A stretch of 64,000 nt of DNA from assembly GCA_951406725.2 (NCBI GenBank), contig OX597827.1:59024001-59088000 (forward strand). The letters run 5' to 3'. The translations under genes and the position numbers were made by a program. Of this stretch, positions 9,493 to 55,303 are shown one piece after another (the stretch's first letter is position 1; each line of letters opens with the position of its first letter). The notes under the pieces were generated by a model. It did not search any database and had not been told where the DNA came from. It was given only the letters and a program-made list of their open reading frames with translations. The DNA comes from Octopus vulgaris (Eukaryota).

Positions 9493-9882
9493 GCATGCCG
9501 GGTGAAATGCGTAGCCGTATTTCGTCTGCTGTTATGTTCTGAGTTCAAATTCCGCCGATGTCGACTTTGCCTTTCATCCTTTCGGGGTCGATTAAATAAG
9601 TACCAGTTACACACTGAGGTCGATATAATCGACTTAATCCGTTTGTCTGCCCTTGTTTGTCCACTCTGTGTTTAGCCCCTTGTAGGTAGTAAAGAAATAC
9701 GTATTTCGTCTGTCGTTACGTTCCGAGTTCAAATTCCGCCGAGGTCGACTTTGCTTTTCATCCTCTCGGGGTCGATAAATTAAGTACCAGTTACGCACTG
9801 GGGTCGATATAATCGACTTAATCCCTTTGTCCTTGTTTGTCCCCTCTGTGTTTAGCCCCTTGTGGGTAGTAATAAAAGAAAT
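9493..9882 (+). mobile_element. SINE family B dimer with 15-bp TSD
   Basis: Two tandem gagttcaaattccgccga.gtcgactttgc...ggggtcga units; aaatatctggaaata at 9478-9492 and 9883-9897. Confidence 0.85.
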
Positions 9883-12780: not shown

Positions 12781-13670
12781 TAGCAGAGATACTCGGCATT
12801 GCTCGGGCATAGTTTGTATATAATATATTACAGTCGTGTTGAAACAGGTGATATGGGAAAGTGCAGCATTGACAAAAAACATTTGTAGAGTAAATGCTGG
12901 GCTAATTCGACTAAGGAACGTGCTATGCGTCCGTTTGGAGTATTTCAGGACTTAACCTGTCATGGAAAATTGGAGGCGGGGCATATGTGGTTTTTGAACG
13001 CACCGAAAAGCTCTCAGTGGATATACTCTCCTTTGCAGCAGTCGGTGATGTGTCTAACACGACCCATGATCTGAAATTTTGACACTTCCGTCGGGTTTGT
13101 TGTCCTATATCACTCATAAACTAAATTTGGAGGAACTGTGGTTGTTCATTTGCGGGTAACAGGGAACCAATAAGGTGATAGACTTGTCCTTGAACTTTGA
13201 CGGCGTAAATTCATATTTATCTATCTTCTTAGATGCACCAAATGATGGTCATTTGACATGCGGAGTTGTATTGTCTGATATCGTTCAGAAAATCCTTTGA
13301 CTGAATGGAAGTGCCTTCTAGAAGATTCATAAGAGGTTGAGAAGAAGCTGGTAGTGCTGGCAATGTTACGTGACCGCCTGAGCAGCACATACCATTTGTT
13401 TCATTTGAAAACTTTAAAGCTGTACATAAACGATAATTTGTGTTTAGCAAACTAATTTGGACAGAGTTATCATTTTTATAATAATGGGATGGATCATATC
13501 TGTAAACAGCTTCAGGGGTTGTGAAGAATGACTTTGTACTTGGTCTGTTTCTGAGAGTTATTCTACTGGACCTCTGTCTAATCATTAAAACATTTGATTT
13601 AATGATCCAGCATTAAGTGCTGCAACATGCATTTGCTGATCTTGAGAAAATCTCATCTCTCTTCAGACTC
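12779..13670 (-). mobile_element. Internally deleted Helitron with a RepHel N-terminal remnant
   Basis: C.ALKFSNETNGMCCSGGHVTLP, SKDFLNDIRQYNSACQMT, KVQGQVYHLIGSLLP; 3' end cccgagcaatgccgagtatctctgCTAG at about 12780. Confidence 0.85.
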
Positions 13671-14490: not shown

Positions 14491-14886
14491 CGTAGGAGTG
14501 GCTGTGTCGTAAGTAGCTTGTTTACCAACCACATGGTTCCGGGATCAGTCCCACTGCGTGGCACCTTGGGCAAGTGTCTTCTACTATAGCCTCGGGTCGA
14601 CCAAAGCCTTGTGAGTGGATTTCGTAGACGGAAACTGAAAGAAGCCCGTCGTATATGTATATATATGTGTTTGTGTGTATGTTTGTGTGTCTGTGTGTTT
14701 GTCCCCACAACATCACTTGACAACCGATGCTGGTGTGTTTACGCCACCGTAACATAGCGGTTCGCCCAAACAGACCAATAGAATAAGTACTAGGCTTACA
14801 AAGAATAAGACCTGGGGTCGATTTGCTCGACTAAAGGCGGTTCTCTAGCATGGCCACAGTAAAATGACTGAAACAAGTAAAAGAGT

Positions 14887-15428: not shown

Positions 15429-16450
15429 TAACGGGAAGGTTTACGAAAATAAACAAAAGACGAAGGCAGGTGGAGTACAAACAAATAATGTATTAGTATG
15501 GCGCTCAGGAATAGAAATAAAACAAGTCTTTTACGTTTCGAGCCTACGCTCTTCGACAGAAAGATACACAGAAAAGAAACAAGGAGAGAAAAAAATTGCG
15601 TGTAGGGGCTAACGATCCATGTCTCTGCTCTTTCTCTCCACATCTGCCCCGTCGTTGCCCGTCTCATGTTACCAACCACCCCTTCACCCTGCCCCTCCAA
15701 CGTACCATTCTCCGAGCCTTCCGGCGACTCCAGTTCGATTCTTCCACCTCGCACATCTTCCCCAACTTACCTCTTCCCTCCTTGAAACGAGCTCACAACC
15801 TGCGTGACCTCCTGGTCCACAATTTCTTTCCTAACCCCCACCACCCAGCCTGGCTCATTCCCCTGCTCTGCCCACGCCGCCGTACTTGCCCCTACCATCC
15901 TCACTACCATCTTCATAGGTACCCATCATCGTCCCTATCACATCACCGACTTCTTTACCTGTACTTCTAGTAACGTCATTTACTGCATCTCCTGCTCTTT
16001 CTGCCCTTCCCGGTACATCGGTCAAACGGGACGCCGATTGGCTGACCAGTTGGCGGAAAACCTCTGAGACATCAGACTCAGCAATGACACTCCGGTCTCG
16101 CGCCATTTCTGCTCTACCGGTCATTCACTACAACATCTGACTGTGTTCAGACTATCTTGCACAAAGGCCATCCGGAATCACGCCTTCGCCGTGAACGAGA
16201 ATTAATCTTCTCTCTTCGCTTCTTTGCGCTTTATAGACTTAACTTCCCTTCTCTCTTCATCTGACTCTCCTTCTCTCTTCATCTGATACCTCCTTTTTCT
16301 CTTCACTTCTACCCACCTCCTCTCTTCATTGATACCCCACACATCCATCCCACCCCTACCACACTCAACCCTCACCCTACTCCCACACTCCAACACCACA
16401 CACCCGCACTACACCACAGCCCACACCACACCACTCCATACACACTAGCA
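15429..16450 (+). mobile_element. 5'-truncated Neptune-type PLE: inverted pseudo-LTR (15429-15615) plus degenerate GIY-YIG 3' fragment
   Basis: [34 protein letters not shown] and FTCTSSNVIYCISCSFCPSRYIGQTGRRLAD match the 32-kb element; 15429-15615 matches 31558-31755. Confidence 0.9.
15527..15564 (-). ncRNA. Minimal hammerhead-like motif (variant core)
   Basis: UCUUU CUGUCGA A GAGC-GUAG-GCUC GAAAC GUA AAAGA. Confidence 0.6.
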
Positions 16451-16959: not shown

Positions 16960-17211
16960 GCGAGCTAGCAGAAACGTTAAAGGCGGAGAGCTGGCAGAAT
17001 CGTTAGCACGCCGGGCGAAATGCTTAGCGGTATTTCGTCTGCGTTACGTTGTGAGTTCAAATTCCGCCGAGGTTGACTTTGCCTTTCATCCTTTCGGGGT
17101 CGACAAATTAAGTACCAGTTACGCACTGGGGTCGATGTAATCGACTTAATACCTATGTCTGTCCTTGTTTGTCCCCTCTGTGTTTAGCCCCATGTGGGTA
17201 ATAAAGAAATA
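16960..17211 (+). mobile_element. SINE family B with duplicated head and about 20-bp TSD
   Basis: gagctggcagaatcgttagcacgccgggcgaaatg head; ggtattagatgacggatgcga at 16943 and 17212. Confidence 0.85.
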
Positions 17212-17364: not shown

Positions 17365-17544
17365 GGTTCTTTCACGCAGTTTCTTTTTACTAGATTCACT
17401 CACGAAACATTGGTCGAGCCAGGGTCAATAATAGAATGCACTCGGTCAACGTACTGCGCAGTAGAATTGAACCCAACACCAGCATTTTAATCATACACCC
17501 ATACCAGCACATATGTTTTATTAAATTTTAAAATTTAAAAAAAA

Positions 17545-18316
17545 AACCGAAATGATGATGCAACCTTTCATGTGCATGTTGCTAAATTGGCAATGAAATG
17601 TAGGCGGCTGACCGGATGGATTCTTAGAACCTTTAGAACAAGAGACCAGGAAACCATGATGGTCCTCTGGAGGACACTTGTCCTAAGCCACTTTGACTAT
17701 TGCTCTCAGCTATGGTCACCATCCAGTGTCAAGTTAATCACAGAACTTGAGGCGATCCAACGAAGCTACACGAAGAAGATAGCCTCTGTGCAGCATATAA
17801 GCTATTGGGAAAGACTCAAGAGATTGAGACTCTATTACTTAGAGCGTAGGAGAGAAAGATATGCCATAATATACATCTGGAAGATCCTAGAAGGACTTGT
17901 CCCAAACTTTGGCATCGAGAGTTACACAAATGCCAGAACTGGGCGCCACTGCATAGTGCCAAGGACTCCAAATTTGCCATCAAGATGTAGGACAAGATAC
18001 TGTGATAGCCTGGGCTTCCGAGGACCACAGCTCTTCAATATCCTCCCGAAGAACCTAAGAGACCTGCATGGGGTGGATGCAGATGTCTTTAAAATGAAAC
18101 TGGATCTCTTCTTGTCAGGTATCCCAGATGAACCAACTTCACGGCAGGAGGTGCAGATGAGGGCAGCTGCATCGAACTCCCTCATGCACCAGATGGGATT
18201 TGCTAAAAAGCATTTGTGAAGTAAAATCATGTAGCAACACCAAATGGCGGTGCCCCAGCATGGCCACAGCTTGTGAGCTGAAACTAAATATGATAAAATA
18301 AAAATAAATAAAATAA
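17545..18316 (+). mobile_element. CR1-group LINE 3' fragment (215-aa open C-terminus, 3' UTR, A-rich tail)
   Basis: GWILRTFRTRD, DYCSQLWSP, LEAIQRSYTKKI, YWERLKRLRLY.LERRRERY, GPQLFNILP, FK.KLD.FL..IPDEP. Confidence 0.85.
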
Positions 18317-31495: not shown

Positions 31496-31559
<64 letters not shown>

Positions 31560-31656
31560 CGGGAAGCTTTATGAAAATAAACAAAAGACGAAGGCAGGTG
31601 GAAAACAAACGAACAATTGTATTAGTATGGCGCTCAGGAAATATAAATAAAACAAG

Positions 31657-31694
31657 TCTTTAACGTTTCGAGCCTACGCTCTTCAACAGAAAGA
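31657..31694 (-). ncRNA. Minimal hammerhead-like motif in the PLE 3' repeat (variant core)
   Basis: UCUUU CUGUUGA A GAGC-GUAG-GCUC GAAAC GUU AAAGA, on the element sense strand. Confidence 0.6.
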
Positions 31695-32535
31695 TACACA
31701 GAGAGAAAAAAAACACAGAAAGAAGGAGAGAAAAAAAATGCGTGCAGTAGCTAACGAATCAACATGGCGATCTGATTTCGGCCAGAGGTCAAAGATCAAA
31801 CATGAGACGCGAGAGCGAAATAAGGGGAGATAATAGGGTTGATAATAGGGTTGAGGGACCAGCTAATAGTGCGTAGGAGGGGTCTGGATGTGTGTATGTA
31901 TAGGGTTGGTGTATGTATTAGTATGTATAAGGGTGTGTGTGTGTGTGTGTGTGTGTATGAGAGAGTATTAGTGCGTAGGATTGGTCTGGACGTGCGTATG
32001 TATGGGGTTGGTGTATGTATTAGTATGTATTAGTATGTATTAGTATGTATTAGTACGTATTAGTATGTATAAGTGTGTGTGTGTGTGTATGAGAGAGTAT
32101 AAGTGCGTATGCGGGGTCTGGACGTGTGTATGTATAGGGTTGGTGTATGTATTAGTATGTACTAGTATGTATTAGTACGTATTAGTATGTATTAGTTGGT
32201 GTATGTATTAGTATGGCACATCATATGTGATGTGATGTGTAAAGTCATGTGGTGTAGTGAGGAGAAGAGGGGGAGGGGGGAGAAGTGGAGGGGAAGAAGA
32301 GGGGGAGGAGAGGGGGGAAGAGGAGAGGAGGGGGGGAGAAGGAAGGGGAGGGGGGAGGAAGGAGGAAAGAGGGAGAGGGGGAGAGAGAAGGGGAGAGAGG
32401 GAGTGAGGGAGCAGAGGGAAGGGGAAGAGGGAGGGAGAAAGAGGGAAGAAGGGAAGGGGAGTAGGGGTGAAAGGATGAAGGACTGAAGAAGTAGGGATCG
32501 GGGGAAAGGATAGGTGAGGAGGGGGGAGAGGAGGG

Positions 32536-35440
32536 TTAGATGAGGAGGGGGGAGAGTTGAGACCAAATGGCGTATAAGAGCGAAGAGAGAAGATTAATTC
32601 TTGTTCACGGCGCAAACGGGAATCCGGATGGCCTCTGTGTAAGGACAAACCGAACACAGATAGGTGTTGCAAGGAGTGACCGGTGGAGCGGAAATGGCGT
32701 GAGACCGGTGTGTCGTTCGCAAGGTGGATGTCACGAAGGTGTTCCGCGAACCGGTCAGCCAAGCGGCGTCCCGTTTGTCCGATGTACAAGGAATTGCAGA
32801 GAGAGCAAGAGATGCAATAGATAATATTGCTGGAGGTGCAGGTGAAGGAGTGGATGATGGGATAGGGTCGATGGTGGGTGCTAGTGAGGCGGGTGGTGTT
32901 GGAGAGGTAAGGGCAAGTGCGGCAACGTGGGCGGGAGCAGGGGAACGAGCCGGGTTGGGAGGTAGGGTCAGGGAAGGAGCTATGGACCAAAAGGTCTCGA
33001 AGGTTGTGGGCTCGTTTGAAAGAGGGGAGGGGTCGGTTAGGGAAGAGGTGTGAAGTGGACGGGTCGGACTGGAGATGACGGAAAGCTCGAAGAATGGTGC
33101 GTTGGAGACGTAGGGTCGTGGGGTGGTAAGTGAGGGGAAAAGGGAGGCGGGAGACTACAGGGCGGGTTCGGGGAGAGAGAGCAGATACACGGTCCACGGA
33201 CCGTGCTCTGGCAAGGGCGGTGTGGATAGTGGTGAGGGGGTATCCACGTAGGGTGAAGTGGTGAGCCATACGTTGAGACTGAGTCTCAAAGTCATGGTCG
33301 TCACTACAGAGCCTACGTAGACGGAGGAATTGGGAATAGGGGATGGAAAGCTTGGTGTGTTCTGGGTGGGAGGAAGAGAAGTTGAGGTATGAGTGTGAGT
33401 CTGTGTGTTTGTAGTGAATGGAGGTGGTAAGAGTGGAGTGAAGAATGCTAACCGAAATGTCGAGGAAGGAGACAGAGGTGTTGGAGATAGTGGAAGTGAA
33501 GTGGAGGGCTGGATGGAAAGATTGGACGAAAGAGAGGAAGGAATCTAGATGTTCGCGGGAGAGTGAGGTGGCACCGATAATATCGTCAATGTAACGACCA
33601 TATAGTTCAGGAGTGGGACCAGTGAAATTAGAGAATATTTGGGCCTCAACATAGCCAACGAACAGGTTCGCATAGTTGGGGCCCATTCGCGTTCCCATGG
33701 CCACTCCCGAGATCTGATGGTAGAACTCGCCCGCGAACGAGAAGCAGTTCAGAGTAAGGACAAGTTCGGCCAGACGAATGAGTGTGGAGGTGTCAGGTAC
33801 AGGGTTAGAGCGGAGGTCAAGAAAGTGTCGAAGGGCCTGCAGTCCTTCGTGGTGAGGGATAACAGTATAGAGGCTTTGGATGTCCATAGTAAAAAGGATT
33901 TGGGAGGAGCCGGGAGGAAAGGAGAAAGAGTTGAAAAGCCGGAGAGCATGGTTGGTATCGTGGATGTGGGAGGGAAGAGATGCCACTAGGGGGGCAAGGA
34001 CACGGTCGAGGTATTTAGAGATGAGCTCCGTGGGGCAGTTACAGGCGGAGACGATGGGGCGGCCAGGGTTGTTGGGTTTGTGGATTTTGGGGAGGAAGTA
34101 AATGGTGGGGGTACGTGGGGTTCGCACAATTAGGTTGGATGCGGTGCGGGGGAGACGGGAGGACGAGATGAGGTCTTGGACAGTAGAGGATACCGTCTGT
34201 TGGTAGCTACGTGTGGGGTTAGAGGGCAGAGGGGAATAGAAGGAGGTGTCATTGAGTTGGCGGAAAGCCTCGGCCCTATAGAGGTCCGCGCGCCACACCA
34301 CTACAGCTCCACCCTTGTCAGCCGGTTTGATGATAATGTCAGCGCGCCGTTGGAGGGAACGAAGAGCCAAGAGCTCAGCCGGGGAGATGTTGAGGCGGCA
34401 TTGGCGCCTGGAGAAGTTGAACCGCTCCAATGCACGCTGACAAGCGCCCGCGAAAAGATCCACTGCTAGGATCTGGCCAGGGGCAGGCGTCCACGGGGAT
34501 GGTCGGCGGCCCAGGCCAGTGAAGCAGTCCTCTTCGTTGGGTGTGGGTGGCGAGTCGTGGTAATGCGCACCCAACCGGACACGGCGCACAAAGCTGTGGA
34601 CATCAACTCGCGTCTGGAATTCCTTACAGGATGGAGTGAGGGGGATGAAACGCAGACCCCTACCAAGGACGGAGCGTTCAGCCGCAGAGAGGGGAAGATC
34701 GGGGGGAATGGTAACAACAGACGGAAGTGGAGAAGGGGTGGGTGGAATAGAAGTAGGAGGGGTGGTAGGTCTCGTGGAGGTCTGAGGGGGAGGGATTGGG
34801 GAGGTGTGTGGGGGTGGTTGGGCGGGGCAGTAGGGTTTGGTGTAGGTGGATGGAGCCTAACGGGAGGGGAGATGGGGTTGTAGGGAGGGGCAGTGGGGTT
34901 AGGTGTGGGTGGATGGAGCCTATCGGGAGGGGAGAAGGGTGGTGGAGGAGTTGGGGTAGTGGCGTCGGGTAGGGTGGAATGGAAGAGTGATTGGAGTTTA
35001 CGAAGTTTGGTATCAGAAAGAAATTGATGGAAGAGTTGATTCAAATGGATAATGAAGCGTAGCGTGTTTGGAGCATAGAGAGGCGGCAGAGAGGAGAAGA
35101 AGGTGGAGAAAGTAGGAGGAAGAAGGCGGTTGATGGCATGTAGTTTGGAGAGATTGGAGCGAATGGTGGCCCGCATAAGGCGGTAAGATGTGGTGCGGAG
35201 TATGGGTAAGATGGAAGAATCCGAGTGGAGAGCAGGGTGGAAGTGGAGGCGGAAACCTTTAGGGATGAGTCGGTGATGTAGGCAGCGGCTTAGGAAAGAG
35301 ACATGGCTAGAGAAGCGGGTTTTTTTAAAAAGAAGTAGAGAGAGATTAACGGACGGCTGAAGGCAATATACAGGAAGCGAACGGAGATGATCCTTCAAAC
35401 GGTGATGGAGGGTGAGGAGGTAGGACCTAGGATCCGGCAT
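32536..35440 (-). CDS. PLE polyprotein: N-terminal domain, Pro-rich linker, reverse transcriptase, Cys-rich linker, GIY-YIG endonuclease (about 968 aa once two 1-nt indels are repaired)
   Basis: HVSFLSRCLHHRLIPKGFRL; LSAAERSVLGRGLRFIP; IIKPADKGGAVVV; YFLPKIHK..PGRPIVS; MDIQSLYT; GVAMGTRMGPNYANLFVG; RYIDD; SFLD; CSRPRCRTC; NIIYCISCSLCNSLYIGQTGRRLADRFAEH; EQELI..L...P.GLN. Confidence 0.9.
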
Positions 35441-35885
35441 GATGGGATAGCGGAAAAAAAACGTTCGAAAAAACAAAAAAAACAAAAAACAAAAATTATC
35501 GTATGAAAAAAATAGAAAAAAAGGATAGCGAAAAAAGGGAAAAAAACAAACGTTCAAAAAAACAAAAAAATAATAATCGTATGAAAAAACTAGATAAGTA
35601 AGCGATAGGGGCAGAAAAGACGGGGCAAACGGAAAAGGGAAAGAAAGAAGGGAAGCAGAGAGAGGGGGAGGCAAAAAAAGGGGGTGCAGGCAGAGGAAAC
35701 GGAGTATGGACATCCAGACAGGGAAGAAAGACGGAAAGGAGAACAAATATGCAGGAAAATGTGGAAAGCATGAAATGAATGTAAAAAAAGTGGTAATATA
35801 AGAGAAAATAAAAATACAACAAACGGGACAGTTTATGCGAACAAGTTCAAGGTTGAAAGTTCAAGGTGAGAAATATATATATATG

Positions 35886-35962
<77 letters not shown>

Positions 35963-36190
35963 TATATATGATAATTTATTTTTAGATTTGAAAATGCACC
36001 TTGATCTGAAAAACGCGTAGTTGTTTTTAAAAAGATTTATTCACATACCAAACTAATTTCGACAAATTTTTGCTTACCAACGGTACAAATATATATTGAA
36101 AAAAGAAAATGTAAATATTAGACAAACATGTTTAAACCATCAAATGTTCAATTCTCCTTTATTTTTTCCTGTGTGAAAATACACATCTTT

Positions 36191-40499: not shown

Positions 40500-43400
40500 T
40501 GTGGAGCGAAAAAGGTAGTTTTACACAGATTTTTTAAATATATTTTCAAGAATATATTTTTTATTGCGAAACCCTTTAAAAACAACTGTGTTACAAATCT
40601 GAATTTCTGAAATTTACAACTTCAAGTTCGGCAGCCAACTTGAAATTTTGAATAATGAGCGAAAAACCAATTTATGACACGTTTGCCGTTCCAGATTTTA
40701 TTTTTTTACATACATTATTACAAATTAATTTTCAATTCAAAACTCTTTGAAAACAAGTGTGTTAAAACCTCAAGCTCTAAAATGCACTTGAAATTTCGTA
40801 ATTATGTGAAATAATAGACGTTTCGACTTTGTTTCCTTTATTATTTTTAATACTCGGTCACTGAATATATATATGTGTTACATGAAGTGTAGATTACAAA
40901 CACATTAAAATAAAATTACGTGTAAATCAATTTTTGATTATTGTCACATTTTGGTGATGAAAACAAATAACATTTCCAATTTATTCGAAATAATTCCACG
41001 TAACTAAATAATACAAACCGTTGTAATGCATTTCTTTTCGTTCCAGTAATAAAGGCAATTAACTTTTTTCGGAGTCGAGAATTAGCATCTCACCCTCAAA
41101 TAAAGAATGGAACAGTCAAAGATTTATAGTTTTGGAAATTCCTAAAACGACATAATGCTAATTGCTTGTTATGTTTAAAATAGCTATAACTAAACAATTC
41201 TAATTGATTATTGCTCTGTTTTCTTTCAATTCGAAGTCCTTTTTTGCCTTGAACACCAGAATTTGTTTCTCTTGATTTCCTAATGAAACCACAAACATTT
41301 GATATTGCTTTTGTCTCGAGTTTTACACATATTTCCACAGCTTGGGTGTGACACGGTAATTTTTCCAGTTGCATTAAATGCCGCTGTTGAATGAAGATAT
41401 CAGTTTTTTCATCGGAAATTGCTCGTGTTAGAGGTGGTTCAATAATAATAATGTCCTGCCATTTAATTATGTCCATGTAGTTTGAGGTAGCAAAGTTTAG
41501 GGTAGGAACTTTGAAAGGTCACACAGATTTTCCTTTTACTGTGTTCGAGCCTGCTTTCTGCGCCTCCATGCTAGTTCTCAAATGTAGCTCCGTTCATCGT
41601 TTATCATGGCCAGTAAAATATTTTTTAAGTGCACGAAGCAAGCATTCCGTTGTACAACTGGAAACACAATGTTTTGTACCGCTTGATCCATTTCTCTCTA
41701 AGACTCAATCGTCTTGAACACATTTAGGGCCCCATTTTCCGAGGAAGTGTTTCGTTTAATTGTGAACCACATTGGCACATAAACTTTCATTATATAAGCA
41801 ACAATTTCATCATGTTAGAAGGATTCTCGGTGGCAACATACAACCGTAGCATACGATTTGGAGTTGTAAGCCATCGAGAATGTGCCATTTTATCGCGATC
41901 CCTTTATGCCATTTCAGATGAACATTTCCCTTTAGAAATAGACTGGTGGATATCAAGAAGGTATTTTTGATCAGTGTTGAGATCGTTTCTGTCTACTGAT
42001 GGTAAATCCGTTGGAAGTTGATTAAATTTCATAACACTTAGTGTTTCACATCACTCCTGCCTCTTACCAATCGGCCCAAGAAATCCAAGGGGCCCGGTAG
42101 TTTTTCCGTCGAGATGATTAATAAGATAGTGTAAGGGAAGCAAATTTGTGTGGAGCTGACACACAAGCCAATGCAATTGCTTCTTCAATTTATCCTCCAA
42201 AAGTCAAATGGCGCCTCCTTTTGGTCCTGTATTGACTGCAGTACCATCGCAGCCTACAGCTATCATGTGATTGGTTATTATCTCATTGGTTTCCAAATAA
42301 TTCAACAAACCATCGGAAATTACTTTTGCAGAACCCGTTTTAACAGCAAAGTTCCCAAGATAGCGGGACTTAGGTTCTTCTTTCAATGAAATATGTTCTT
42401 TTTTTCTTACGAAATGTTTTCCTATTTGTTCACTCACGTGGGTTATGTCCCTCCTTCCATCAAAATACACGGCAAATAATGGTTTATATGACCCGCCTTG
42501 CTGCTGCAGAGATTTACGTTTTCTGGATCGTTCACGCCTTACTTTCGATCTGTCTATAACGAAAGAACATTCACCAGATGCACTTGCCGTTAAGTCGCTG
42601 ATGACCGAACGTGTAAGAGCAGTAGCACGATCTGACACACCGGTGCGGTCACAGGCAGAAGCTAGTTCTGGGAATTTCATTCGTTTTATTGGTGGTTTCG
42701 AACTTAGGTTTTTGCTGACGTCTTTTTGTTTCATGGAAAATGGAATTGGAGAATCTTCATCTTCACCTTCGCCTGATTCATTCCAGATTCACTGCTTGAT
42801 GAAAACGCTATCAATTCAGAATCCTTTGCTGACGTAGAAGGCCGGCTGTGCTCTGGCCGATTCTTTCTAATTAACCTCTGAACGTTCTGTTTAGATACTG
42901 CTTGATCTATTCCCCCAATGATCATTTTTCAATTAGTCCGTTGATCCTGTAAAAAATCTTGTTCTCTCTGTGGTACGTTTTTGTCTCTGCCACAACTGAA
43001 ATTTTGAAAAGAATTGCTCTTGCAACAGGAAATGTCATATAAATCTTTTATTACATTGTTTTTAAACACTTTACACTTTGTTTGAAACAATGGTACATTT
43101 TTGTTCTATTTTAGACAGATTTTAGTAATGCTTGGTACTTTAGATAAAAGTTTAAGATAAAAGTTTACTCAGTCGTAACACAAGGGATGGATGCCTTTTG
43201 CCAAAGAAGAATTATCTTTTCTGCTACAATCTTGACAATTTGTTTCATTGAAGGATCTTTCTTAATTACATTCATTACATTCTTTTCTCATTTTTTTCGT
43301 TCAAATAAAATACATTTTAGTACGTCCTTGTAAATTGGCAAAACTCGCTCCACAAGATCACATGGAGTACCAAATATTGGGCATTCAGTATCATGACGCG

Positions 43401-50749: not shown

Positions 50750-52030
50750 GATAATTCCATTATGACTTGAAAGGGAAGTACGTAGAAAAGAATGATGGAC
50801 TGGATAATTACAATCTGAAATCGCACAGAAACCCATTCCATAATCCTGCATTATGAAACTTTGAAAAGGATCTAATCAACATATTAAAGAAACAGAAATT
50901 CGTAAAAACCACAAACCCTATTTAAAATTAATTATCGGACATTACTTCTAAAATTAAAAAATGGGGTCTACAGACTCAGCTCAAATTACAGACTTGATTG
51001 ACTTATTTTTGCTTTCAAAAATAAAGGAAAAGTTCCCTAACATTGAAGGAGGATTATACAGGGACGATGCATTACTTGTATTAACTGGCTTCTCTTTACA
51101 AACTGTGGATAGGACAAGGAAAGCTTTGATAAAAATTTTTTAGTTAAGTTTGATATAACTTTCGAAAATATTACAAAGGTAATCAATTTTTGGAATGTTA
51201 CTATAAATCTCCAGAGTGATTTGTTCTCCCCTCACAATAAACTGAATAAAACAATACAGTATATTAATACAATGTCAAATCACTCTGAAGTGTCATAAAT
51301 GGGGTAATTAAAGGAGTATCTATAAGAATATCGAATCTTTCAGCTAATGAAAGAATTTTCAATAACCACGCATCATTATATAACACAGCACTTAAAAATA
51401 GTTGTTCCCATGAGAACATTTATTATATAAGAAGTACAGTATTTAAAAGTAAACTAGGTAAACTCTTTCCAGGCTTAAGTAAATTAAATATTGACATTCA
51501 GTCAGTAAGTGAGCCTGTTGAACAATGGATTCCCCATACACATAGGAGATATTATCAACCTTTTAGTCATAATTTAACAATAAATTCAGTAAGAAACAGA
51601 CTGGTTAGAAATAATACCACTAGAAAGCGGGATATAATTTGGTTCACCCCCACCTTTTCCCCTTCAAGTTGAGAATCTCCCTGAATTATTCTTTAAGATC
51701 ATTGAAAAAAAAAACGTCATCGAAACAAATCTAGTATAAAATTGTCATATTCAACATCACCTAATTTGGGTTCCATCATTGCAGCTAATAATTGATCTAA
51801 ACTTAAAAAGAATACAAAAACATAATCAGGAGAGTAGGAATCGAAATTCCTTAAAAAAAAAACATGTAATTGCCGATCCCCAGAATCGTGCCCGTAAAAA
51901 GGGTTGTGTTTTGTGAAAAAATGTAGTATATAAGTGTGAAGAACATCAAAATAACCCAAGAAAATCTACATAGGGAACACAATAAACTTTAAAACTAAAA
52001 TTAGGTTGACATAAAAATTCTTTTACAAAA
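50750..52030 (+). pseudogene. Decayed Naiad-like PLE (RT and start of EN)
   Basis: MGSTDSAQITDLIDLFLL...GGLYRDDAL, QYIN..SNH, RISNLSANE.IF, RDIIWFTP, IKLSYSTSPNL, TCNCRSPESCP. Confidence 0.75.
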
Positions 52031-54428: not shown

Positions 54429-54820
54429 TGTGTGCCTGTGTGTATAATAAAATAAAGGTTCACATAGAATCGGATACTTGCAAAGATATGCACCACGTTG
54501 AGTTGGATAAACCTGTGGTTCAGGCCTATGGTTGATAAGTATCAAACAGGATATTCCGCTTGTGTACAGAGACAACTAACGCACAGAGCACTAACACTTG
54601 TGCTGAAAAATTTTCCTTTATACCGCCCACCCCCGTGCCTCTAGTGCCAATATCTGAAAACCAAATCTCTTATGACAATACTCAGTACCCACATTCTCCG
54701 ATCCTGGGCTCGGCAGCTAATCATAATAGAAATGATCCTAGTAATATAGCCCCTGCTAACAACCATACAAACACCGGTAACCCTCGCTGGCTTGAATAAT
54801 AACACCATAATAAAGTAGGA

Positions 54821-55303
54821 TTGCGTATTCGTTATAATAAATTTCATGTATTGGAAAATATTGGGTGCAATTGTTTAGGCAAAATGTCATGTCCACATTC
54901 TGGTCGATGTCTGGCAGTAAATGTAGTTTACAAATGTAATGTTGTGATGGAGACTAATACTTATATTGGCTGCTCTGTAAATCTCAATCAACGCTTTCGT
55001 AACCACAATTCTTCATTTAAATCAAGATGTAGGGCAGGTAGGACTTCTCTAGCCACGAAGATTTGGGAACTTAAGGACGACAACGTTAAATTTGATTTGA
55101 GGTGGGACATCATTAGGCTCACTAAACCGTACTCAAACAGCAAATACAGGTACAGGCTTCTCTGCATGGAGTTGTTTGAAATTTTAAAGAGATGAAGTAG
55201 TGAAGATCTAATAAATGATAAATTAGACCTTCGTATTTCCTGCACACATAAGGCAACCCGCTCCTTTAAATATCTTAAGGACATTAAACAACCTCTAAAA
55301 TAG
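54821..55303 (+). pseudogene. Naiad-like PLE GIY-YIG endonuclease region followed by about 1.2 kb of probable 3' UTR
   Basis: CNCLGKMSCPHSGRCLAVNVVYKC...YIG...RFRNHNSSF...TSLATKIWELK...WDII...LC.E..I; continues past TGA 55193 as SSEDLINDKLDLRISCTH. Confidence 0.8.

What the first reader, a model, noticed from the sequence alone, without database searches (positions are those of the whole stretch)
31558..35872. Probably intact, young Penelope-like retroelement masked by two single-C losses in homopolymers
Seen: the N-terminal frame (ATG 35440) and the RT-EN frame (open from 34856) overlap across a C-run-rich Pro linker and differ by -1. At the C-terminus the ORF overshoots into the UTR, but one extra C in the run at 32547-32552 gives GLNSPPLLI* (TAA 32536-32538), matching the paralog at about 16240, which ends LNFPSLFI*. 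There are no other stops in 2.9 kb and all RT and GIY-YIG motifs are intact. Established: PLEs encode one RT plus GIY-YIG ORF, and the CxxxxCxxC linker is Neptune-like. Inference: both lesions may be long-read homopolymer errors, which would make this a 968-aa competent element; no canonical slippery heptamer was seen for programmed frameshifting.
Basis: partly seen in the sequence, partly recalled or inferred. Interest (0 to 1): 0.75.

Follow-up and report, generated by a model that had tools for sequence, protein, structure and literature searches.

The report
Truncated Penelope copy, assembly homopolymer errors
This is one copy of a young, very abundant Penelope-type jumping gene whose two reading-frame breaks are likely sequencing errors in runs of C, but it lacks the upstream repeat that most long copies carry and so is probably a dead-end insertion rather than an active source.

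Summary
Observation confirmed. The element (31558-35874, minus) is a young Penelope-like retroelement in (TA)n, with all RT and GIY-YIG motifs. The family is single-ORF: 16 of 84 long copies read open for 960 aa or more, one stops naturally at 968 aa, and 67 of 96 genome matches have the in-frame run at the first shift, so a two-ORF or frameshifting family is rejected. Run shortening looks like assembly error: at the second site, substitution-interrupted runs are 7 long or more in 17 of 21 young copies, pure runs in 4 of 74. For this copy each break is about 70% likely an error, both about 50%; no locus-specific reads were available. 'Competent' is not supported: the copy lacks the upstream pseudo-LTR and a 189-nt leader found in 59 of 73 copies, and carries five unique substitutions. 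Neptune placement rests on motifs, not phylogeny. Side finding: the family's hammerhead motif has U in place of core A6 (5119 versus 32 genome matches). The scan noted Penelope hammerheads and (TA)n insertions in this genome before, on other DNA. Ordinary new member.

The parts
31558..35874 (-). Solo, 5'-truncated copy of a young Penelope-like element (4317 nt; family unit about 4.5 kb)
   Evidence: 99% matches genome-wide; ends from comparison with 83 other copies
35441..35874 (-). Remaining pyrimidine-rich 5' UTR; the 189-nt leader and upstream pseudo-LTR of most long copies are missing
34979..35440 (-). N-terminal domain of the single ORF (ATG 35440), homologous to the N-termini of one-ORF relatives
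   Evidence: alignment A1; tblastn with L053
34700..34978 (-). Pro-rich spacer with a 63-nt duplication, mostly absent from relatives
34810..34814 (-). Site 1: C run, five long here, six (in frame) in 67 of 96 genome matches
33303..34658 (-). RT region: GLRF, DKG, RT1-2, A (MDIQSLY), B, C (YIDD), thumb
   Evidence: Pfam RVT_1 E 2e-7; motif places
32913..32939 (-). CX4CxxC linker motif
   Evidence: conserved in A1
32556..32825 (-). GIY-YIG endonuclease with CCHH, R, H, E and N residues
   Evidence: Pfam GIY-YIG E 0.006, below the curated cut-off
32547..32552 (-). Site 2: C run, six long here and in most assembled copies; seven long in most substitution-interrupted copies
32536..32538 (-). TAA, the family stop when site 2 is seven long
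   Evidence: (L053)
31558..32535 (-). 3' UTR / pseudo-LTR: polypyrimidine tract, AC-rich repeats, hammerhead motif, end at TTATAT merging into (TA)n
31657..31694 (-). Minimal type I hammerhead-like motif with U at core position 6 (31686) instead of A
   Evidence: fold; census; no Rfam hammerhead match
35875..35970 (.). (TA)n target, 5' flank
31498..31557 (.). (TA)n target, 3' flank
15430..16271 (+). Older related fragment: inverted pseudo-LTR piece (15430-15615, 86%) plus decayed EN end (15617-16271, 75%), stop at 16262-16264

Best explanation
This is a solo, 5'-truncated insertion of a young single-ORF Penelope-like retroelement of Neptune type in a (TA)n repeat, whose two one-base shifts are likely homopolymer under-calls of the assembly and which is probably not a donor because it lacks the upstream pseudo-LTR. 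Shown: one 968/969-aa ORF in the family (N-terminal domain, Pro spacer, RT, CX4CxxC linker, GIY-YIG), (TA)n insertion sites, a fixed 3' end, head-to-tail units joined by a 189-nt leader, and systematic shortening of pure C runs across copies. Inferred from known PLE biology: transcription starts in the upstream pseudo-LTR of a partial tandem, the EN nicks AT-rich DNA, and the RT starts at a fixed internal point of the RNA and copies towards the 5' end; here copying stopped 189 nt short of one unit, perhaps 0.7-1 million years ago. Inferred for this copy: each break about 70% likely an error, both about 50%.
For: One ORF: 16 of 84 copies open for 960 aa or more, L053 ends at 968 aa; ten chosen relatives align through both frames as one protein and end 2-10 residues after the last EN asparagine; site 1 in frame in 67 of 96 matches and in the single spanning contig of runs X1 and X10. 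Error signature: site 2 is 7 or longer in 17 of 21 interrupted but 4 of 74 pure runs among copies within 1% (P 1e-11; 41 of 49 interrupted genome-wide); 75 deletions against 2 insertions in runs of 5 or more, which hold 2% of the ORF; these do not rise with substitution divergence (rho 0.09, P 0.45) while other shifts do (rho 0.33, P 0.003); the five-C label needs 9 changes on the tree against 11.0 when shuffled; six-C runs are short in 51 of 185 pure and 1 of 20 interrupted cases (P 0.03). The nearest relative L031 has an interrupted 7-long site 2. Truncation: 59 of 73 copies with a located 5' end carry pseudo-LTR plus leader, the window does not; Penelope transcription needs the partial tandem (PMC2377424 passages; PMC4209133).
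Against: No read could be tied to this locus; the laid contigs lack the window's private letters or drop rare variants. Real short alleles exist: 4 of 21 young interrupted site-2 runs are six long, and the X1 contig spans site 2 with six Cs. In X6 only 195 of 12647 depth shows the seventh C explicitly, and at site 1 the sixth C is explicit in only 14% (X5) and 21% (X6) of depth; contigs that end inside the run cannot show it, so these are floors, but the short state was not counted. The interrupted-run test at site 1 alone is not significant (P 0.67). One six-C run is never short (0 of 78), so the error depends on context. The sequencing platform of the assembly and of the runs is not on record. 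The promoter of this family is unmapped and could lie in the retained 434 nt.
Confidence: 0.72

Rival explanations
1. One or both shifts are real slippage mutations in this copy, which is simply a dead member of the one-ORF family. This differs from the best reading only for this locus.
For: Five unique substitutions show some age; CpG transitions are enriched about twofold among singletons, so copies do age in the genome; real six-long site-2 alleles exist (X1 contig); estimated chance that both are errors only 0.47, range 0.14-0.71.
Against: Run shortening does not track divergence, and copies with no private substitution (L034, L039, L059, L060) also read six at site 2.
Confidence: 0.45
2. 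The youngest sub-lineage truly has six Cs at site 2 and makes a 1060-1100-aa protein with a Pro/Ser/Leu tail.
For: 15 of the 16 open ORFs run into the tail; 33 of 37 pure runs in the younger sub-lineage read six and none seven; X1 contig has six.
Against: Interrupted runs of young copies are mostly seven, with many different interrupting letters and places; tail length and frame vary from 1059 to 1102 aa; relatives end right after the EN. Only two interrupted runs fall in that sub-lineage (one six, one seven), so it is not excluded there.
Confidence: 0.12
3. The copy is an intact, competent source element.
For: All catalytic motifs intact; its amino-acid changes fall in variable columns; 434 nt of 5' UTR remain.
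Against: No upstream pseudo-LTR, leader or second hammerhead motif; five substitutions shared with none of 83 other long copies, so no daughter seen among them.
Confidence: 0.08
4. The family is two-ORF or uses programmed -1 frameshifting in the Pro linker.
For: 28 of 96 copies read five at site 1.
Against: 67 of 96 are in frame; the five-C state is scattered on the tree; other six-C and seven-A runs are short at the same 20-34% rate; relatives are one ORF.
Confidence: 0.02

Closest known systems
Neptune-clade EN+ Penelope-like elements (Craig et al. 2021, PMC8557442, passages read)
   Same: Single ORF, C-terminal GIY-YIG with CCHH, CX2-5CxxC linker, DKG motif, partial tandems with pseudo-LTRs, hammerhead motif, microsatellite bias.
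   Different: Long Pro-rich duplicated spacer; U at hammerhead core position 6; clade not fixed by a tree (Nematis shares the linker, and Neptune is paraphyletic in that paper).
Poseidon PAc of Anolis (Frangieh et al. 2024, PMC11167929, parts 1-2 of 4 read)
   Same: Tandem loci, AT-rich targets, fixed internal start of reverse transcription inferred from the fixed 3' end here.
   Different: PAc belongs to the Penelope/Poseidon clade, which lacks the linker motif; its hammerhead overlaps the start codon, whereas here it lies about 725 nt upstream of the next ATG in a tandem.
Minimal hammerheads of metazoan PLEs (Cervera and de la Pena 2014, PMC4209133, parts 1-2 of 4 read)
   Same: 5-bp helix I, extra base between positions 9 and 10.1, G10.1-C11.1 pair, palindromic minimal helix III, place in the pseudo-LTR.
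   Different: A6 is U in nearly all copies; the parts read name a U3-A8 variant but no position-6 variant.

Membership tests
EN+ Penelope-like elements | Single ORF with RT and GIY-YIG EN | tested here: met
   Met for the family: L053 968 aa, 16 of 84 open; A1. The window copy as assembled has two shifts.
EN+ Penelope-like elements | CCHH motif in the EN, two Cys between GIY and YIG | tested here: met
EN+ Penelope-like elements | Partial tandems forming pseudo-LTRs | tested here: met
   59 of 73 copies with a located 5' end; absent in the window copy
EN+ Penelope-like elements | Hammerhead motif in the pseudo-LTR | tested here: inconclusive
   Architecture present but core A6 is U; Rfam gives no hammerhead match; cleavage untested
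Neptune clade | C-terminal EN with CX2-5CxxC linker | tested here: met
   CX4CxxC at 32913-32939; shared with Nematis, absent from Penelope/Poseidon (PMC8557442 passages)
Neptune clade | Microsatellite insertion bias | tested here: met
   3' flank TA-rich in 67 of 84 copies, 15 other, 2 not located
Neptune clade | RT phylogeny with clade-labelled references | not tested
   No labelled reference proteins among the 120 listed hits; supplements of PMC8557442 not opened
Naiad/Chlamys | N-terminal EN | tested here: not met
   EN is C-terminal
Hydra clade | No CCHH, DKT for DKG, CxCX5C linker | tested here: not met
   CCHH, DKG and CX4CxxC present
Competent (donor) PLE copy | More-than-unit arrangement with upstream pseudo-LTR | tested here: not met
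   (TA)n directly at 35875; leader and upstream hammerhead motif absent
Competent (donor) PLE copy | Intact ORF at this locus in accurate reads | not testable with these tools
   Only run-level contigs were served; indirect estimate 0.47

The most novel reading that the evidence does not exclude
An autonomous Penelope family has made over five thousand insertions, including fresh more-than-unit tandems, with a hammerhead whose core A6 is replaced by U throughout. If that motif does not cut, it is genomic evidence that self-cleavage and RNA circles are not needed for PLE transposition or tandem formation in vivo.
Probability: 0.35. Interest if true: 0.55.

Novelty: new member of a known kind. 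Interest (0 to 1): 0.27.

Why it matters
Practical: in this assembly the count of intact young retroelements is biased low, since pure six- and seven-base runs are shortened in 20-95% of copies; comparing interrupted with pure runs exposes this without reads. The family itself was recently active. This copy adds little, being a truncated solo. The one lead of wider interest is the family-wide A6U hammerhead, which makes the role of self-cleavage in PLE transposition testable and fits in vitro data that hammerhead mutants still insert (PMC11167929).

Tried and rejected
Programmed frameshift or two ORFs: rejected. Five-C sub-lineage spreading in trans: not supported, label scattered, though only 1 of 35 inner branches is well supported. 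Rfam scan of 31500-36000: only two (TA)n chance matches to mir-1277; the hammerhead motif was found by hand. PDB profile search with A1: 0 hits. Expression: no RNA holder is on record among 24 listed runs; X1 and X10 are RNA by guess only, so no claim on expression is made. Explicit counts of the short alleles in run contigs, and reads over the 5' UTR, were not obtained; that question stays open. A multiple alignment of 84 copies timed out and was replaced by pairwise comparison with the natural copy L034. Look-up of earlier findings by sequence: nothing. Literature: four searches; the term A6U occurred in none of the 15 papers listed, but Lunse et al. (PMC5785218), which treats PLE hammerhead variants, is not held, so the variant may be in print. 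No supplements were opened; those of PMC8557442, PMC4209133 and PMC13282606 may hold this family or this variant. No structure prediction was run.

Full report
Observation. The minus strand holds a frame from ATG 35440 that stops at 34468 and a second frame, shifted by -1, open from 34856 to 32210. The second carries RVT_1 (E 2e-7) and a weak GIY-YIG match (E 0.006, below the cut-off), with all RT motifs, a CX4CxxC linker and an EN with CCHH, R, H, E and N. TAA lies at 32538-32536, and the older paralog ends LNFPSLFI* at 16238-16264. The element runs from 35874 to about 31558 between (TA)n tracts.

The family. A search of the own genome with the 5' 901 bases gave 570 candidates; all 40 scored were 99% identical or more. 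I fetched 98 loci (38 stretches around those hits, which favour likeness to the window, and 60 of the 64 further site-1 matches); 15 lacked the ATG context, leaving 83 long copies plus the window. Median substitution divergence from the natural copy L034 is 0.4% over 80 near-full alignments, the window 0.42%. Five of 39 copies had no private substitution, so the family moved recently. The window has five substitutions unique among 84 and two shared with one copy; its amino-acid changes fall in variable columns. With the rate quoted in PMC13282606 (passages) this is roughly 0.7-1 million years. That paper lists 30 recently active Penelope families in an octopus, so such a family is expected there.

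One ORF. Sixteen of 84 copies are open for 960 aa or more; L053 stops at 968 aa, the other 15 run into a low-complexity tail of variable frame (1059-1102 aa). Ten relatives that I chose from 120 listed hits (589 found) align with both window frames as one protein, lack most of the Pro spacer and end just after the last EN asparagine. Site 1 is the C run at 34810-34814: of 96 exact-flank matches 67 are six long (in frame), 28 five, 1 seven (hand count). The single spanning contig of runs X1 and X10 has the in-frame state. A two-ORF or frameshifting family is rejected.

Are the short runs errors? Site 2 reads six in most assembled copies: of the first 100 of 1001 matches, pure runs were 15 five, 57 six, 10 seven, 3 eight (hand count). 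Runs interrupted by a substitution were 35 seven, 6 longer, 7 six and 1 five of 49 (hand count). Among copies within 1% of L034, 17 of 21 interrupted but 4 of 74 pure runs were seven or longer (P 1e-11). The true family length is therefore seven, and the only copy with the natural stop has an interrupted run. Across the ORF there are 75 one-base deletions and 2 insertions in runs of five or more (2% of bases); they do not rise with divergence, while other shifts do. The five-C label needs 9 changes on a poorly resolved tree against 11.0 shuffled. For six-C runs the test is weaker: not significant at site 1 alone (P 0.67); pooled with a control run, 51 of 185 pure and 1 of 20 interrupted are short (P 0.03; the control count uses the first 100 of 343 matches). 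Residual homopolymer errors in repeats that polishing cannot reach are a known feature of long-read assemblies (PMC8812927, abstract; bacterial genomes); the platform here is not on record.

Against. Four of 21 young interrupted site-2 runs are six long, and the X1 contig spans site 2 with six Cs, so real short alleles exist. The seventh C is explicit in 39% of X5 depth but 1.5% of X6 depth; the sixth C at site 1 in 14% and 21%. These are floors, since short contigs end inside the run, but the short state was not counted. No contig could be tied to this locus. A rough estimate gives 0.67 for site 1, 0.72 for site 2 and 0.47 (0.14-0.71) for both being errors in this copy.

Competence. Of 84 copies the 5' end was located in 73; 59 continue upstream into a 187-191-nt leader (55 exactly 189) joined to the 3' end of another unit, and 14, the window among them, do not. 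Fourteen of the 16 open-ORF copies keep an upstream hammerhead motif. In Drosophila Penelope the transcript starts in the upstream pseudo-LTR and most PLEs appear to need a partial tandem (PMC2377424, abstract and passages; PMC4209133, parts 1-2 of 4; PMC6765202, passages). By inference the window copy is a dead-end product even if its ORF is whole; the promoter of this family is unmapped.

Mechanism. Shown: fixed 3' end at TTATAT, TA-rich 3' flank in 67 of 84 copies, variable 5' truncation, invariant tandem junction. Inferred from PMC11167929 (parts 1-2 of 4) and PMC8557442 (passages): the EN nicks AT-rich DNA, the RT starts inside a tandem read-through RNA or a circle, and copies towards the 5' end, often beyond one unit.

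Hammerhead. At 31694-31657 lies a minimal type I hammerhead architecture as described in PMC4209133, but with U at core position 6. 162 of 170 motifs in the fetched DNA share this core; the genome has 5119 exact matches with U6 and 32 with A6. A natural A6C variant cleaves slowly (PMC3088659, passages), and hammerhead mutants of PAc still insert in vitro. Whether U6 cuts is untested, and its novelty is unverified because PMC5785218 is not held. Earlier notes on other DNA of this genome report Penelope-borne hammerheads with altered cores and (TA)n insertions; they are leads only. I also saw passages of bioRxiv 10.64898/2026.07.22.740005 and PMC12602865; neither bears on the breaks.

Verdict. 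New member of a known kind, Neptune-like by motifs and target, clade untested by phylogeny. The error hypothesis holds for the family and is an even bet for this copy; the claim of a competent element does not hold. Interest 0.27.

Noticed in passing
window 31657-31694; genome-wide: Hammerhead motif with U at core position 6 in 5119 exact matches against 32 with A; the older paralog at about 15530-15565 also has U6.
   Followed up: partly
L031, L035 and window 35874: Three of 73 copies are truncated at the same 5' point and three others at one point inside the leader, both at AT-rich spots: microhomology with the (TA)n target, or a start site.
   Followed up: no
G000:C6:117388000-117408000 (L036, L037): Three head-to-tail near-identical units about 4.47 kb apart.
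   Followed up: partly
listing: Site 1 is short in 28 of 82 matches on C1-C16 but 0 of 14 on C17 and later contigs; unexplained.
   Followed up: no
window 34701-34706: One six-C run is never short (0 of 78) while three others are short in 27-37% of copies.
   Followed up: no
listing: Runs under five organism codes (A-E) hold 81-86% of the element's words; related species, label variants or mixed samples, not examined.
   Followed up: no
window 54803-55195 (+) and 51289-51672 (+): Decayed fragments that look like another GIY-YIG / Penelope-type element (likeness recalled; no tblastn hit to this family).
   Followed up: no
window 17539-18219 (+): 226-aa frame resembling the C-terminal part of a LINE ORF2 (label recalled).
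   Followed up: no
window 42204-42788 (-) and 13229-13612 (-): Frames resembling a DNA transposase fragment and a Helitron fragment (labels recalled).
   Followed up: no
window 9518-9755, 14491-14688, 17055-17131 and further copies: At least two dispersed SINE-like families of 200-240 nt (D15, D17, D19, D20).
   Followed up: no
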